64,000 nt of DNA, from contig OX597814.1 of the NCBI GenBank assembly GCA_951406725.2, positions 59,458,001 through 59,522,000 of the forward strand, in the 5' to 3' direction. The DNA comes from Octopus vulgaris (taxonomy: Eukaryota). Below are positions 873-60,902 of the stretch, in pieces. The position numbers and the translations under genes are program-made. The notes below the pieces were generated by a model. The model was not told where the DNA came from. It made no database searches and was given only the letters and a program-made list of their open reading frames with translations. Positions within the stretch are counted from its first letter, which is position 1, and every line of letters begins with the position of its first letter.

Positions 873-920
873 CATTTCATTACCGGTTTCGGTCATTTCG
901 ATACCTTTTCAACTGTAACG
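873..920 (-). ncRNA. Minimal hammerhead ribozyme, U3-A8 core variant
   Basis: Minus strand: CGTTACAG-TTGAAAA-GGT(ATCGAAATG)ACC-GAAA-CCGG-TA-ATGAAATG. The first pair of stem I is mismatched in this copy. Confidence 0.7.
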
Positions 921-3794: not shown

Positions 3795-3842
3795 CGTTAC
3801 AGTTGAAAAGGTATCGAAATGACCGAAACCGGTAATGAAATG
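3795..3842 (+). ncRNA. Minimal hammerhead ribozyme, U3-A8 core variant (inverted-arm copy)
   Basis: Same sequence as 873-920, on the opposite strand. Confidence 0.7.
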
Positions 3843-7689: not shown

Positions 7690-9095
7690 TCTTAGATGTC
7701 TATCATTTTTGCATGTTCTATTCCGAAAATGGGAAATCTCTACAGACAGACATTAGTAAAACATCCTTCTGATATCAAGAAAGCTATATTTCAAGTATGG
7801 GCCAAAAATTATAAAAGCCGTAAATTCGCTTTCTGAAACATGATCAAGAACTCCAATGAAGCACGGATATCCGAGAGATGGATCAACTGAACCTCTCATA
7901 TCCTCGCCAGAAAGCTACAAATTAAAACCATCCGTGATGAACCAGCAAAACAGAGAGAACTTAAGGAAAATGTGGTTCTGAGAACTTCAAAATGGAGATA
8001 GAACTCCTGAAACAATCAGAGCTCAATCCCACGAAGAAAATATTACCTCAATTGATGAAGAAATGGAGGTTGAAATCGCGAAAAAAGCTCAAGGGGAACT
8101 TTTTCACAATATCATTCCACTCTGGACACAGAACTTTGAAAACGCGGAAGTAATTACACTTCGACGATGGAATAAAAAACAACAATTGGTTCAATCACTA
8201 TGATGACAAATTCAAGGAGGAAAATCATTCTTGAAAATTAACTAAAAATTATGAACTCCACGCAACCGGAAGAAAGTCGCAACCGGAACAGTACCTGAAT
8301 GCCCATCCAGCACCCAAAATAACCAATACTTTCTTCAGTATTCCAAATACTCATGAAAGACACAAAATGGGAAATTCCAATTCACCCTTCACCGCAAGAC
8401 AAAACACCTCCACTCAAAGATACAGAAACCCATCTCACCCAAAGAACCCTCCACGTCTTAGACGCAACGCCTACAGGAATAACTCTTTCGAACGGAACTA
8501 TAAGAGAAATGAAAATTCCCCACGTCCGAGACACATTCTACATAATGAAAACTTCGAACAGGACCAATCAAGAAGTAGGACCTTCTCCCTCCCAAAACAA
8601 ATCTTTCACAATGATCACTTCGTCCAAACCACAAGATATAACCATTACAACAACACCAGTCAGAACCAACCACAACGGAGAACCGGAAATAGACCAAGCA
8701 TCAACGGAAGGGAAATCAACAGGAGCACTAATTCCTTATATCAAAGCCCAAAAATCCATTTTTTAAGCAAACTGGGCCAAAACCGGGACACTCGATGACA
8801 CCAACCAAATAGGAGATCCTAAATGTGATAAATCTCTTACATAAAACCTTTCAAATCAACAAGTCAAAATTCTCACAAAAGGACTGAAATTCACCCTGAC
8901 ACCACAAAGATCGAACCTAAGTGATATACAAAATGGTATCCAGGAATACTGCAGAAAACGTCGAGAGAAGTATCGGATAAAGAAACTAATGATAACTCAA
9001 TACTTCATAATAAAGGTAACTACAGTCCGACAAAAGGAAGAAATCAAACTCTGGGTAACTTTTGTGATTTGGTATCCAATTATCCCTATAATTTA
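7690..9095 (+). pseudogene. Decayed N-terminal half of a PLE ORF
   Basis: N/Q/R-rich ORF 8367-8798, then frameshifted NVINL..KILTKGLKFTLTPQRSN..IQEYCRK. Homologous to 41273-41730. Confidence 0.75.
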
Positions 9096-17426: not shown

Positions 17427-18445
17427 ATCCCAGATAAAAATTCCCCAAAACAGAAAAATAGCTTTTAGCCAACACATAGATACTTGCGCCAACAAAAAAA
17501 CACCAAACTTCAGAATTTTCCCCCTCTACCAATTTAGGGACGATACAACCTCAAGACAACGAATAAGTAAAGAAAATCTCTTTATTACAAAATACAAGCC
17601 ACTTCTTAACGGGTCTACGACAAACAATTAATATACCTCAATTTTAGAATAAAAGAAAAAAATATATATACACACACAAATACTACACTCCATAGAATCC
17701 ATTACTAATCAGCCCCTTCATAGCTATATTTACACCCATTCATATTCTCCCTTCTCTGTTTTTTTCTTCTTCTTCTTCTTCCTCTTCTTCTTCATCATCA
17801 TCGTTATCATCATCATCGGCATCATCATCATCGCCACCATCATCACCACCATCTTCTCCTTCTCCTCCTTCTTCTTCTTCTTCTTCTTCATCATCATCGT
17901 TATCATCATCATCGTCGTCATAATCATCACCACCATCACCATCATCGTCATCTTCTCCTTCTCCTTCTCCTTCTTCTTCTTCCTCTTCTTCTTCTTCTTC
18001 TCCACCCCCTACCCCTTAAGTTTGTCACTAATGTTTTTTAGTATAACACCTACGCTAATTCTATAAACAAGCCTGTCAATATAAATATTCTCCTGAATTG
18101 AACTGAGACTGCCAGCCGCCACTGACCATTCAAAATACGACCATCAGGGCACTCCCAGATTCCCCCACCCCCTTTCCTCACCAGCCTTCCCTCTACTACC
18201 CTACCAAGAACTCACAACTACTTCGAACACACAAGTGCAAACAAGGGAGTCAGAGAAAGGTAGAATGCCACTTAAATCTGAACACTACTATAGAAATATT
18301 CTTTTAAAAAAACTTTTCTTCTAATTTTTCTAAATTTAATTATTTAATCGTTACAGTTGAAAAGGTCTCAAAATGACCGAAACCGGTACTGAAATGTTCA
18401 CTATAAAATTATTTTAGCATTTTCTATTTTTTACTTGTTTTTTCA
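17427..18445 (+). mobile_element. PLE 3' fragment (endonuclease C-terminus + pseudo-LTR), same family as 821-3892
   Basis: Encodes SQIKIPQNRKIAFSQHIDTCAN..FITKYKPLLN, then a UTR homologous to 3118-3892. (TA)n on both sides. Confidence 0.9.
18349..18396 (+). ncRNA. Minimal hammerhead ribozyme, U3-A8 variant, best-preserved copy of its family
   Basis: CGTTACAG-TTGAAAA-GGTC-TCAAAAT-GACC-GAAA-CCGG-TA-CTGAAATG. Stem I pairs 7 of 8 and stem II pairs 4 of 4. Confidence 0.8.
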
Positions 18446-18467
18446 TATATATATATATATATATATG

Positions 18468-39946: not shown

Positions 39947-40217
39947 AGATACCAACACGCTAAGAGGGACCAATGCGGTCAAAACTACTAAAAATAAACA
40001 AAATTTTACCGAATGCAAAACTTCAAAACACATCATTTTAAAAAAGAATTCAGTTACATATCACATGTGATTTCGCATTAAATGCGAAATCACATGTGAT
40101 ATGTAACTGAATTCTTTTTTTTTTAAAATGATGTGTTTTGAAGTTTTGCATTCGGTAAAATTTTGTTTATTTTTAGTAGTTTTGACCGCATTGGTCCCTC
40201 TTAGCGTGTTGGTATCT
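39947..40217. repeat. Near-perfect fold-back palindrome of the HHR-bearing repeat seen at 1-312
   Basis: Arms of ~133 bp with axis at TTCGCATT-A-AATGCGAA (~40080). Confidence 0.92.
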
Positions 40218-40561: not shown

Positions 40562-40652
40562 ATAAGAGTAGATCGTGTACGAGTGGGTATATATTTGTAA
40601 AATAGAAGTTTGAAAACGCCACTATATTATATCAATTTTAATTTTCTTATGA

Positions 40653-40697
40653 ATTTTACATGTTTCGGTTCTTGAAAAAACGAACCTTATCAAAAAT
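40653..40697 (-). ncRNA. Minimal hammerhead ribozyme, U3-A8 core variant
   Basis: Minus strand: ATTT-TTGATAA-GGTTC-GTTTTTTCAA-GAACC-GAAA-CATG-TA-AAAT. All stems pair fully. Confidence 0.8.
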
Positions 40698-41272
40698 ATT
40701 TTTAAAAGTAAAGTGTAATAGAAAAGTTCATGATTGTTTCTTACTGGTCTCAATAGAATCCACGTGGTAGTGTTTTGTTGGTAGTAGGTATAATAGCTAT
40801 AAATTTCAAGTTGAGTGTAGTAAAGAAGTTCATTATTGTTTCTTGCTGGTATCAACGGGATCCACGTGGCTGTTTTTAGCTTTCTTGTGTTAGAATGACC
40901 CGCGACTGGAATGGTAGCAGCAGTAGCGATTGTTGGTTGTTGAAGTAGTAACCGTTGTGGTGGTTGGGGTTGCAGCAGCTCAGCTGTGGCAGTGGGATGA
41001 CCAGTGGCTGAGATGTCAGTAGCAGCAATTACTGTTGGTCGTAGTAGTGGTAACTGTGGTGGTGTTTGGGGTTGTAGCAGTTTAGCTGTGGCCGTAGTAG
41101 CAGCAGCAGTAGTGGGGGACTGTTGATCGTAGCAGCAATAGTAGTGACCACGATGGTTGTAGTAGTAGTGATGATAGTGGAAGCAGTCGTAGTGATCGTG
41201 GTGGTTGTGGTAGAATTCCATTTTTCTTTACGGAAGACCAATGTTTTGTTTTAATATTCCTGGCCCAATTCT

Positions 41273-43857
41273 ATGAAATACAATCCACATAACCAAACTA
41301 AGACTCCACCACCAAACCTCTACCCTAGGAACCAACCATACAAACCTAACAAACAACAAACACACTACGGAAGAAACAACTACCAACACTATATACCTGA
41401 TACACTAAGAGGGAACACGAGGTACAAAAACACACTACAAAACAGAGCACCACAAACTCACTCTGAAAATTATAACAACAGGAGTCAGATAAACAGTGTT
41501 TTTGAACATAACTACACAAACCATGTTTTAGACCTAACACACAGGAACAGGGATACACGATGGCAACGGACAAACAAAAGAAACCACAGGTAATTAAATA
41601 ATCAATCTCTCGAATAAAGAACTTACACCTAACGAAATAAAGCATACTTTCCAAAGGACTTAAATTTACACCAACCCCATAACGTTCTAATTACTATGAA
41701 ATGAAACATGATATTTCGGAATTTTGTAGGAAACTAAGACTTGTCGAGGAATTTCATGGCAAGCAAATAGATGATGAATCAATAGCTAGAAACAACAGCG
41801 ATTACACTCCTACCAAGGGAAAGAATAAAGCCTTAGACCGCTATTGTGACTACATAACTAATTTCCCTTTTCAATTCACCAAGAAACAAAAACACAGCCA
41901 AAACTTTAACAAAAGAGAATGGAACGACCTCATCAAACTAAGAGAAGACAAAACAATAACAATTAAGGAGGCAGATAAGGGCAACGCGGTAGTATTAATG
42001 AATACAAACGATTATAAAAAGTTAGTGCTATCCCTATTAAGAGATGAAACATATTATGAAAGGGCCCAACATTATAATCAGCCAAAAATAATGTATAACC
42101 TCAGGACATTAATTAACACATACCGAGAAGGACTCACGGACAAGGAGTATGAATACATCACTAACTTCAAGTGCAAATCGAGTTTGTTCTACGGTATCCC
42201 TAAAGTCCACAAAAGCCAAATAATTAGTGAAACATGCAAGACATCTACCGATATACTCATCACAATCCCTTCACCAAATGATCTTCAACTTAGACCGATA
42301 ATAGCAGGCCCAGCATGTGAAACTCACCGCCTCGGCAATTTCTTAGACATACTTCTTAAACCTTTCCTAAAGCACATCAAAAGCTACGTAAGAGACGATA
42401 TAGACATGCTTAACCACCTCCCAAAAGCAGTCAATGAGAAAACCCTACTAGTATCCTTCGACGTAATTAACCTTTATTCAAACATCCCTCACACCCTAGG
42501 AATAGAAGCGATCACTTTCTGACTAAATAACTACTCCTTTGAAATCCCAACTCGCATAAATAAAGAACTTATAATAGAAGGACTTAGATTCATTTTAGAA
42601 AACAATTACTTTATTTTTGACAGTAATTTCTACAGACGAAGATCGGGAACAGCGATGGGCACGCGTACTGCGCCTTCTTTTGCCAACCTAGTGATGGGAT
42701 ACCTCGAGAAAATACTCTACCAGAAAACACGCGAGAAATATGGAAACACCTTCTCCACATATATCCAGAACAACTGGAAAAGATACCTCGACGACTGCTT
42801 TATCCTCTGGGATAAAAGTATAGAGAAACTTGAGGAATTTAAAATACTATTAAATGGAATAAATGATAATATTCAGTTCACGATGGATCATAACGAAAAA
42901 GAATTGCCATTTTTAGACATCCTCATTAAGAAAGTCGGCAACAAAATAGAGACAGATATCTATTATAAACCGACATACTCCAAGCAGTACCGACCCTTTG
43001 ATTCATGCCACACAAGACACACTAGAATAAATGTCCCTTTTTGTTTAGCTAGAAGGATTTGCACCATAATATCAGACACAAACACCCGACACACACGCCT
43101 CCAGGAACTTAGAACTACACTCATAAATAGAAATTATCCACAGCTCCTAATAGACAGTGCAATCCAACGAGCACTTAAATTAAGTATAGAAGACTTGAGA
43201 CAAACAAAACCAAAAAAGAAAGAAAAATTAAAAACCCTTCCCTACATCTCTACACACAACCCACTTAACAATGAGGCTTTCAACACCATACTACAAAGCA
43301 CAGCCCTACTAAAGGGAGACCCAAAGATGAACCGGATCCTCGAAACACACACCATCATTAAAAGTAAACGGCAACCAAAATCCTTGAAAAAGATTTTAAC
43401 CCAAGCTAAACTGCACTCAACATCAACCACAAAACCAGCTGTTAGAAAATGTGGAAAGCCCAACTGCGGAATCTGTGTCATCTTGGTAGAAGGTTCAGAA
43501 TTCACATTAGAACAAGGCCATCAGTTCACCATCAGAAAAAACTTCACCTGTGCATCAGAAAACTTAATTTACGTCTTAACATGCGCAGGCTGCAATAGGC
43601 AGTATATAGGCCATACAAAAAACAGCTTACGTAAAAGGATGGCGGTGCATAAATCCCAAATTAGAAACCCTGAATACCGGAAAATACCAGTCAACGGACA
43701 CATAGATAGATCCGCTTAAAAAAAAAGTCCGAAATTTACAACTTGCCCACTCTACAAATTCAGTGACAGCGTAACCTTCACTCAACGCCAAAATAAGGAA
43801 CTTTATTTCATTATAAAATTTAGACCAAGTTTGAACACCCTGGGCCACGAATATTAA
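41273..43857 (+). pseudogene. PLE polyprotein (DKG domain, RT, Zn-knuckle linker, GIY-YIG)
   Basis: KGLKFTPTP, IKEADKG, YGIPKVHK, LRPII, SFDVINLYSNIP, GTAMGT, RYLDD, CGKPNCGIC and LIYVLTCAGCNRQYIGHT. 41701-43857 is one frame broken by TGA at 42520 (Trp in paralogues) and TAA at 43717. Confidence 0.93.
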
Positions 43858-58390: not shown

Positions 58391-59109
58391 CTTTTCATCA
58401 ATCATCTTATTAATGTTATTGTCCAGCCCGCAGCTACTACTTCTATGTAATGCCTTGATGGTAAATTGAATGAAATAAAGTAGGTAGATAGATAGATAAA
58501 TAGATAGATAGATCTGTTGAACAATTTTATACGCAACAGTGAAACAATTTCTATAAATTTATTATCTCCTTATTAACTTGTATAAATACGTATATTTCTT
58601 TTGATGATTTGAACTGTGCCATTAATCATTCATTGATTTAATCGCGTCCTTATCCTCAAAGCAGTTAGCTGCATCAAAATGTTTCGTGAAATTTCTACAT
58701 TATTGCGTCTATGCTGAGTGTAATACTTAAATTCCTTACATATAGCATCGAAAGTAATGTCATTACAAATAGAAATAATAAAATAAGGAGGGTAATAATA
58801 TAGTGTTTAGAATATTTCTAACTCTGATATATCAATATATGCTTCATTGTATATATAATTCGTTTCGAAGCCTCTCTCAGAAAGCTATTTATTTTAATTA
58901 TAATTACCATTGCCGTTCAATCACTTAGAAGCAACTCGTAATTAAATTTTTATCAAACATTTATTTGAATGCTCTCAATGGGAAAATGTGAGACATTTCT
59001 TCCCTTGATATGTCTTTACTTCAGAAGCTTACTTTTCATTGCTCAGTTCTCAGCACTATTAGCTTAAATGTGAATAAGTTGAGGGTTAAAAACATATAGA
59101 ATTTACCAA

Positions 59110-60902
59110 TTTGTTTGGCATCTTACTGAAACCCATTCTTAAAAATATCGAAAACTCCATTAGAGATCATCTCGATATGTTACCCGAGACAATCAATGAA
59201 AAGACAGGCATGGTATCCTTCGATGTTTTGAACCTGTATACTAATATCCTACACGACTATGGAATAGAATCATTCAAATTCTGGTTGGAAGAATTATCCA
59301 GTAGATTTACCAGGAACAAGGTATTTATAATTGAAGCATGAAAATTCATTCCCCAGAAAATTACTTCTTGTTTGTTACCAATGACTACCGATATGAATGT
59401 GGAAAGGCGATGGGTACAAAAGCAGCCCCAGTTCTTACTAACTTAGTAATGGAGTGTTTAAAATCGGCAATATATCAAAATATCGATACTCATTTTACCA
59501 ATATGTGAACAAGAAATGATAGCTGGATGACTGTCTTATTTTTTGGAATGTAAGTATTGATACATCATTCTAATTTAAAACCCTGCTTAATGATATAAAT
59601 GCTACCATTCAATTTGCTAAGGAATACAGCAAAGAGAAACTTCCATTCCTTGATATTTTAATTTAGAAAGTAAACAACCAAATTGAAACCGATATCTATT
59701 ATAAATCCACAGACTCGAGGCAATACGTACTACATAACTCATGCACTAGAAGCAGATTAAAATAAATTTAGAAAAGGATTCGCGGAAACGGGATTTGCGA
59801 CACCATGAACATATACATATATTAGTCGAGAGATATTATCCACGATCACTGACAGCTAATGGGATATAAAATGTACCAAGAGAATTGATATCCAAACACC
59901 GAGAGAAATAAAACGAAATAATAAACCCGATCAAACATTACTACCCTATATTTCTAGCCACAATTCTAGAAACAATGAGGCATATAACCCTATTATTCAA
60001 AATTTACCTATGCTCACTAAGATGAACTAACTTCTACGCACACACAAATTCATCAAACGCAAAACCAACCAAAGTCACTTGGAGAATATTGACAGTTGTG
60101 AAAACTGAACCCAACAGCAACAGAACCAAGAGTGAAAAGATGCGGGGATCCAAACTATGGAAAATGTCTCATCTTCCTGAAAGGGCTGAAATTCCACTTC
60201 AAACAAAGCCAAAGATTCAAACATAAGACTGAGTTTACACCTGCATCTGAAAACTTAATATATGTGATAACTTGTTGAGGATGTGTCCTTAGCTATATAG
60301 GTTGACCAAGTATACCTCTCAGACAGAGAATAGTATAGTGAAAAAACTGTTTTCCCAGGTGTAGGTAAATGCCGTTAAGTAATAGAGAGATACGAAGGAC
60401 TTCTCCAACCAAATTTCATAATTTCTTTCCCTATTTACTAATGCAACGACAAATTCTGTACAACAACCGTCAGATATAATATCTTCCTTTATTGAAAAAT
60501 ACGAACCACACTTGATTATGAAGATATAACCGATTTTAGAATTTGTAAATATCTTAATTACTAAATATACAATTGCATTACCTAATCGTAAACAAAAACC
60601 GATAATAACCCCAACCCAGCTTGCTTCTAATACTTATAAATTACCTCTCGTCAAAAATTGATTTCCTTCCAGATTCATTCACAAAATATCATTCCTATTA
60701 CTAAAATAGAATGAAAACATCCTATGGTTGATGTAATTGTAATATTATCACTAAATGTTTAATCCTGATTAGCAAAAGCGAAACCGATCGCTTTTGTAAC
60801 TATTTCATCGCATAAAACAATATATATATTCTATACGTCAACCAGCCATTGACTTTTTCGCCACAATATATCACGGGTGGATTTTTCTTTCAGCGAAGCT
60901 TG

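What the first reader, a model, noticed from the sequence alone, without database searches (positions are those of the whole stretch)
18349..18396. U3-A8 compensatory catalytic core (UUGAAAA) in a PLE hammerhead
Seen: the core reads TTGAAAA where CTGANGA is expected, and the two changed bases are exactly positions 3 and 8. Stems I and II and the CCGG palindrome are intact, and the same core occurs at 873-920 and 3795-3842. Established: C3-G8 is a Watson-Crick tertiary pair, and U3-A8 is a tolerated but rare swap. Inference: this is selected covariation, and CUGANGA-based searches would miss the whole family.
Basis: partly seen in the sequence, partly recalled or inferred. Interest (0 to 1): 0.8.

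Follow-up and report, generated by a model that had tools for sequence, protein, structure and literature searches.

The report
Known U3-A8 hammerhead in Penelope element
The motif is a real copy of the small hammerhead RNA carried at the end of a very abundant Penelope-like jumping gene, and its swapped core pair (U-A instead of C-G) is already published for such elements, so it is an ordinary example, although in this genome the swap is unusually common and likely yields a weakened self-cutter.

Summary
Observation confirmed: 18349-18396 is a type I hammerhead with core UUGAAAA (U3, A8), helices I and II and an ACCGGU palindrome, in the terminal repeat of a 5'-truncated Neptune-type Penelope-like element. 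U3-A8 is the family norm: 1,954 of 1,964 genomic matches. The copies at 873 and 3795 are two ends of one insertion and have helix mismatches. U3-A8 in PLE hammerheads, including this heptamer, is in print (Cervera and De la Pena 2014; Perreault 2011), and this scan found it before on other genomes. Selection shows only between families: four related families keep U3-A8 across 51-66% protein identity, the seven nearest outgroups read have C3-G8, and 30 of 32 outgroup hits have a Watson-Crick 3-8 pair. Against strict covariation, two families carry U3.G8 (107 copies; 77 of the first 100 of 288). Extras: U3 cores (about 5,700) outnumber C3-G8 (about 1,200) among hammerheads with this helix III, and U3 with A17 is predicted to pair over the cut site. 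Cleavage is untested. New member of a known kind.

The parts
18349..18396 (+). Type I hammerhead motif, U3-A8 core, family A pseudo-LTR
18357..18363 (+). Core UUGAAAA (U3 18357, A8 18362)
   Evidence: 1,954 of 1,964 family matches
18382..18388 (+). Palindrome ACCGGU (helix III between two copies) and A17, the predicted cut site 3' of 18388
   Evidence: two-copy fold -25.7 kcal/mol with the palindrome paired, against 2 x -9.1 for single copies
17427..18452 (+). 5'-truncated Neptune-type PLE copy between (TA)n runs: end of the GIY-YIG frame (17428-17628) plus pseudo-LTR
   Evidence: 67 of 67 residues identical to the end of the RT-EN frame in L072
740..3973 (-). Older family A insertion: broken RT-EN frame (3073-1648), tailed 3' repeat (about 740-1631) and inverted repeat (from 3118)
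873..920 (-). Hammerhead copy with U3-A8 core and helix I and II mismatches
3795..3842 (+). Identical inverted copy of the 873-920 motif, same insertion
40649..40701 (-). Hammerhead of related family C, core UUGAUAA (also U3-A8), different helices, palindrome ACAUGU
   Evidence: 375 genomic matches
41527..43836 (+). RT-EN frame of family C, 66% identical to family A

Best explanation
The motif is the hammerhead in the terminal repeat of a young Neptune-type Penelope-like retrotransposon; its U3-A8 core was likely fixed once in the ancestor of a five-family clade, and it is predicted to cut weakly after A18388, and only when two copies pair through the ACCGGU palindrome. Shown: sequence, copy numbers, element anatomy, tree. 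Established: 3-8 is a Watson-Crick pair, U3-A8 is active in vitro, PLE hammerheads cut poorly and as dimers. Inferred: in tandem copies the upstream hammerhead would trim the transcript 124 nt before the first ATG, while most RNA that is reverse-transcribed stays uncut or is rejoined, because copies run 64 nt or more past the cut site. The U3-A8 pair, and a possible U3-A17 pair over the cut site, would keep the rate low. The copy at 18349 is a lone 5'-truncated stub and is likely inert unless it meets another transcript.
For: Anatomy. [quoted passage not shown] Family. Clade A, C, D, E, B at support 99/97; A, C, D, E are U3-A8 at 51-66% identity between A and the others while helices I-III differ. 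Seven nearest outgroups read are C3-G8. With 3 and 8 left free, 30 of 32 loci with a hit (98 scanned) have a Watson-Crick pair: 25 C-G, 3 U-A, 1 G-C, 1 A-U. Tandem geometry in L075. Literature.
Against: No cleavage data for this RNA. U3.G8 is fixed in family B (first 100 of 107 all U3.G8), which also lacks one A at the cut site in 16 of 18 stored matches yet multiplied, so an intact hammerhead may not be needed to spread. A retrozyme-like family is 77 U3.G8 to 23 U3-A8 (first 100 of 288). The U3-A17 pair is only a secondary-structure prediction that ignores the 3-8 contact, and is strong in 3 of 5 U3-A8 PLE families (0.71 A, 0.73 D, 0.76 E; 0.12 C, 0.05 F). The closest homologues P0001-P0008 have unknown cores, so the origin may be older than this clade. 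Outgroup loci are partly redundant.
Confidence: 0.7

Rival explanations
1. The hammerhead is a vestige. U3 and A8 are two AT-biased changes that rode along in an ancestral master copy, and the element no longer needs cleavage.
For: Family B multiplied to 107 matches with U3.G8 and a missing base at the cut site. Hammerhead mutants did not affect insertion by a lizard PLE in vitro (PMC11167929); Naiad elements lack the motif and are abundant (PMC8557442). The window is AT-rich.
Against: The other core bases, helix II pairing and a palindromic helix III are kept across families only 51-66% identical in protein to A, with different helix sequences. No C3.A8 family appeared in any listing. Outgroups show four different Watson-Crick pairs.
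Confidence: 0.18
2. U3-A8 is a neutral equivalent of C3-G8: a fully active ribozyme reached through a tolerated U3.G8 step, with no dampening.
For: U3-A8 is reported active in vitro and natural (PMC3088659). A 362-bp tandem retrozyme-like family is 99 of the first 100 U3-A8 with C17 and no trap (904 matches), beside a 359-bp C3-G8 family with a similar hammerhead. U3.G8 and U3-A8 coexist in one family, where G8 sits in a CpG.
Against: Every PLE family of this clade combines U3 with A17; PLE hammerheads are generally slow. C3-G8 remains the majority among outgroups (25 of 30).
Confidence: 0.1
3. The motif is a chance match in AT-rich repeat DNA.
For: Folding energy is not beyond shuffles; no Rfam hammerhead hit.
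Against: 1,954 matches against 0 for the reversed control; same place in the repeat as in other PLEs; 1 of 200 shuffled windows gives a hit.
Confidence: 0.02

Closest known systems
U3-A8 hammerheads of Cercyon PLEs in Schistosoma mansoni (Cervera and De la Pena 2014, PMC4209133)
   Same: Type I hammerhead in a pseudo-LTR, U3-A8 core, found as a family of over a thousand copies; the supplement lists UUGAAAA (S. mansoni 4) and UUGAUAA (S. mansoni 3), the two heptamers seen in this window.
   Different: Here helix III has a 2-nt palindromic insert, helix II is 4 bp, there is no extra base between 9 and 10.1, the cut site is GUA, and the host element is Neptune-type and very young (41 copies 100% identical over 171 nt among 40-41 scored of 694 candidates).
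PLE hammerheads with a small palindromic helix III (Drosophila, rotifers, shrimp; same paper)
   Same: Short palindromic helix III that needs a second copy.
   Different: Those shown in the supplement passages seen have C3-G8.
Natural U3-A8 core variants (Perreault et al. 2011, PMC3088659)
   Same: Same compensatory pair, reported in several natural examples and as active in vitro.
   Different: Described there as rare; here it is the norm of several families.
Neptune clade of Penelope-like elements (Craig et al. 2021, PMC8557442)
   Same: RT, CX2-5CxxC linker, C-terminal GIY-YIG, (TA)n targets, inverted ends, tail, ORF1 separable by a frameshift.
   Different: No named Neptune reference was on my tree, so the clade label rests on motifs.

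Membership tests
Type I hammerhead ribozyme | Core N3 U4 G5 A6 N7 N8 A9, G12 A13 A14, A15.1-U16.1, H17, with 3-8 a Watson-Crick pair | tested here: met
   U3-A8 is a published variant
Type I hammerhead ribozyme | Literal CUGANGA consensus | tested here: not met
   UUGAAAA; 1 of 1,964 family matches has C3-G8
Type I hammerhead ribozyme | Helices I and II around the core, G10.1-C11.1 | tested here: met
   for the 18349 copy; not met next to the core in the 873 and 3795 copies
Type I hammerhead ribozyme | Match to an Rfam hammerhead model | tested here: not met
   none among 120 matches at E<=1 over the whole window
Type I hammerhead ribozyme | Self-cleavage 3' of N17 | not testable with these tools
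   needs an assay or raw RNA reads; only contigs were offered
Dimer-type PLE hammerhead | Palindromic helix III that pairs between two copies | tested here: met
   ACCGGU; two-copy fold, (prediction only)
Dimer-type PLE hammerhead | Lies in the pseudo-LTR of an RT plus GIY-YIG element | tested here: met
Neptune PLE | C-terminal GIY-YIG with CX2-5CxxC linker before it | tested here: met
   (C-x4-C-xx-C); definition
Neptune PLE | (TA)n target bias, inverted ends, 30-40 bp tail | tested here: met
Neptune PLE | RT groups with named Neptune references | not tested
   trees held no named PLE references

The most novel reading that the evidence does not exclude
In this genome U3 has displaced C3 as the usual hammerhead core, in a whole PLE clade and in tandem retrozymes, with U3.G8 families marking the route between the two pairs. 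In the PLEs, U3 plus a GUA cut site forms a U3-A17 latch over the scissile bond, like the known C3-G17 trap, making a selected low-gear or protein-gated ribozyme that spares the RNA needed for reverse transcription.
Probability: 0.2. Interest if true: 0.55.

Novelty: new member of a known kind. Interest (0 to 1): 0.25.

Why it matters
The swap itself adds little: it is published for PLEs. The genome-wide picture has modest value. It shows how far CUGANGA-only searches can undercount (about 5,700 U3 against about 1,200 C3-G8 matches of one helix III type). It also offers a natural series in close relatives (C3-G8, U3.G8, U3-A8, with A17 or C17, and one family with a damaged site that still spread) to test the open question of whether PLE hammerheads are needed, tuned down or merely carried.

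Tried and rejected
Rfam scan: no hammerhead hit; only low-complexity miRNA matches. Folding z-score: not significant, so not used as support. Treating the three window copies as independent evidence: rejected, two are one insertion. A C3-G8 subfamily inside family A: one copy only (L036); 0.004-0.008 expected if the two sites change independently, but n=1, the copy is 88% identical to the window over 276 nt and age differences raise the expectation, so I give it little weight. Sequencing runs: no RNA holder listed; all 24 rows are contigs. Laying 4 runs: no other letter at positions 3 or 8 among the 40 rows shown, 57 rows not shown, no pile-up of ends; contigs cannot show a cut site, so no conclusion. 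A stable structure behind the slippery site: none in family A (-0.2 kcal/mol), -10.5 in family B. Two of 32 outgroup hits were dropped before the count of 30 (L102, A.G, opposite strand, no palindrome; L113, C.C, inside the frame, no palindrome); 66 of 98 loci gave no hit. The careful 54-row tree did not finish (one search gave the quick tree); a 19-row careful tree was built instead. Lunse et al. (PMC5785218) and Przybilski and Hammann (PMC1986816) are not held, so rates for U3-A8 and U3.G8 were not seen; supplementary file 1 of PMC4209133 could not be searched. The DNA around the closest homologues P0001-P0011 was not obtained.

Full report
Observation. The bases at 18349-18396 form a type I hammerhead: helix I, core UUGAAAA (U3 18357, A8 18362), a 4-bp helix II, GAA, the palindrome ACCGGU and A17 at 18388. 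The predicted fold gives helices I and II, though its energy is not beyond shuffles. Two copies are predicted to pair through the palindrome (-25.7 kcal/mol). The motifs at 873-920 and 3795-3842 have the same core but are the inverted ends of one insertion, and both have mismatches in helices I and II. Rfam gives no hammerhead match in the window.

The element. The motif sits in the terminal repeat of a 5'-truncated copy (17427-18452) between (TA)n runs. [quoted passage not shown] These are Neptune-type features as described in PMC8557442 (passages); no named reference was on my trees. The family is young: 41 places are 100% identical over 171 nt (40 of 694 candidates scored). In tandem copy L075 the predicted cut lies 124 nt before the first ATG and 4,412 nt from the next hammerhead. 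Copies run 64 nt or more past the cut site, so I infer that the copied RNA was uncut there or rejoined.

Inside the family. With flanks fixed, G000 has 1,954 U3-A8 matches, 4 C3.A8, 1 G3.A8 and 1 C3-G8, and 2 U3.G8 and 2 U3.C8, the last an inverted pair: 1,954 of 1,964. These copies share the core by descent, so they say little on selection. The one C3-G8 copy exceeds the independent expectation of 0.004-0.008 but is a single older copy.

Between families. Related PLE families were found in the genome: C (also in the window at 40649-40701; 375 matches; first 100 by my count 95 U3-A8, 3 U3.G8, 1 C3.A8, 1 U3.U8), D, E and F (within 1,424 matches, control 28; first 100 by my count 90 A8, 10 G8) and B (107 matches, first 100 all U3.G8). 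A, C, D, E and B form one clade at 99/97 (F gave no RT match and is not on the tree). A is 51-66% identical to the others, and B is 96-97% identical to D copy L205. Their helices differ in sequence but keep pairing. The seven nearest outgroups with a readable motif are C3-G8 (L095, L099 by scan; L096-L098, L174, L175 by eye). In 98 outside loci scanned with 3 and 8 free, 32 gave hits; 30 credible ones are all Watson-Crick (25 C-G, 3 U-A, 1 G-C, 1 A-U) and 2 were dropped. Some loci are near-duplicates. So selection on the 3-8 pair is supported, and U3-A8 here is likely one old change inherited by several families. The cores of the closest homologues are unknown.

Against strict covariation. Family B, likely derived from a D-like U3-A8 parent, has U3.G8 and lacks one A at the cut site in 16 of 18 stored matches, some of which are the same place held twice, yet it multiplied. 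A retrozyme-like repeat has 77 U3.G8 and 23 U3-A8 in the first 100 of 288 matches, by my count. No C3.A8 family appeared in any listing. A wobble seems tolerated and a C.A mismatch not (inference).

Scale. Four non-overlapping patterns sum to 5,728 matches, nearly all U3 (2 of the first 100 are C3), including a 362-bp tandem repeat with U3-A8 (904 matches, 99 of the first 100). One broader C3-G8 pattern gives 1,493 with 278 in the control. All these patterns need a 2-nt insert in helix III, so minimal hammerheads without it were not counted, and the majority claim holds only for this type.

Mechanism. Established: C3-G8 is a Watson-Crick pair and G17 can trap C3 (PMC3884650, passages); U3-A8 is natural and active in vitro (PMC3088659, passages); PLE hammerheads cut weakly and as dimers (PMC4209133, parts 1-2 of 4); in a lizard PLE the hammerhead needed the protein to cut and was not needed for insertion in vitro (PMC11167929, passages). 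Inferred: this ribozyme cuts slowly after A18388 in paired copies. U3 with A17 is predicted to extend helix I over the cut site in A, D and E (0.71-0.76) but not in C or F (0.12, 0.05); the model omits the 3-8 contact. No cleavage or expression evidence was obtained.

Known or new. PMC4209133 reports U3-A8 in PLE hammerheads with about 1,300 hits in S. mansoni. Its supplement file 2 lists UUGAAAA, UUGAUAA and a U3.G8 core in a Saccoglossus PLE; file 1 could not be searched. Searches for a paper on U3.G8 families or on this genome's hammerheads found none, in a library that lacks most subscription papers; I ran no search aimed at the U3-A17 idea. Other papers seen: PMC6765202, PMC3846280, PMC7229834, PMC2920678, PMC7151607 and bioRxiv 10.64898/2026.07.22.740005, passages only. 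Earlier notes of this scan report the same variant in other genomes and reach the same view; none exist for this genome. That the host is a cephalopod is my guess from recall and was not tested.

Verdict. Real, correctly read, new member of a known kind; interest 0.25. The clade-wide U3 core, the U3.G8 families and the possible U3-A17 latch are the parts worth an experiment.

Noticed in passing
L072:2286-2296, L075:6089-6131, L078, L205, L096, L097, L174; window about 8757-8765: ORF1 overlaps the RT frame at a conserved T TTT TTA/G run in families A, B, D and 3 of 5 outgroups checked, a likely -1 ribosomal frameshift site. PMC8557442 Fig. 1 legend already mentions an ORF1 frameshift in PLEs. 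ORF1 has no Pfam match.
   Followed up: partly
L078:4720-4870 (-): A family A repeat is joined to a family B repeat so that two different hammerheads with the same ACCGGU palindrome lie about 95 nt apart and could pair in cis.
   Followed up: no
L136:117 and L138:1969: PLE-associated hammerheads with G3-C8 and A3-U8 cores in metagenome contigs, one locus each.
   Followed up: no
L208, L209 (362 bp), L056-L062 (about 359 bp), L210-L215: Three retrozyme-like repeat families with U3-A8, C3-G8 and mixed U3.G8/U3-A8 cores; in the mixed one G8 lies in a CpG, an easy route to A8.
   Followed up: partly
L036 (G000:C13:524775-524812): The single family A copy with canonical C3-G8.
   Followed up: partly
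window 39955-40209: A long near-perfect inverted repeat of about 255 nt, seen as a below-threshold Rfam miRNA match; possibly a small transposon.
   Followed up: no
window 59099-60335 and 8235-9089: Decayed pieces of two further PLE families, about 42-51% identical to family A; no hammerhead found near them.
   Followed up: partly
L174-L191: Eighteen loci in bacterial genome bins carry these animal-type PLE frames, likely host DNA in the bins.
   Followed up: no
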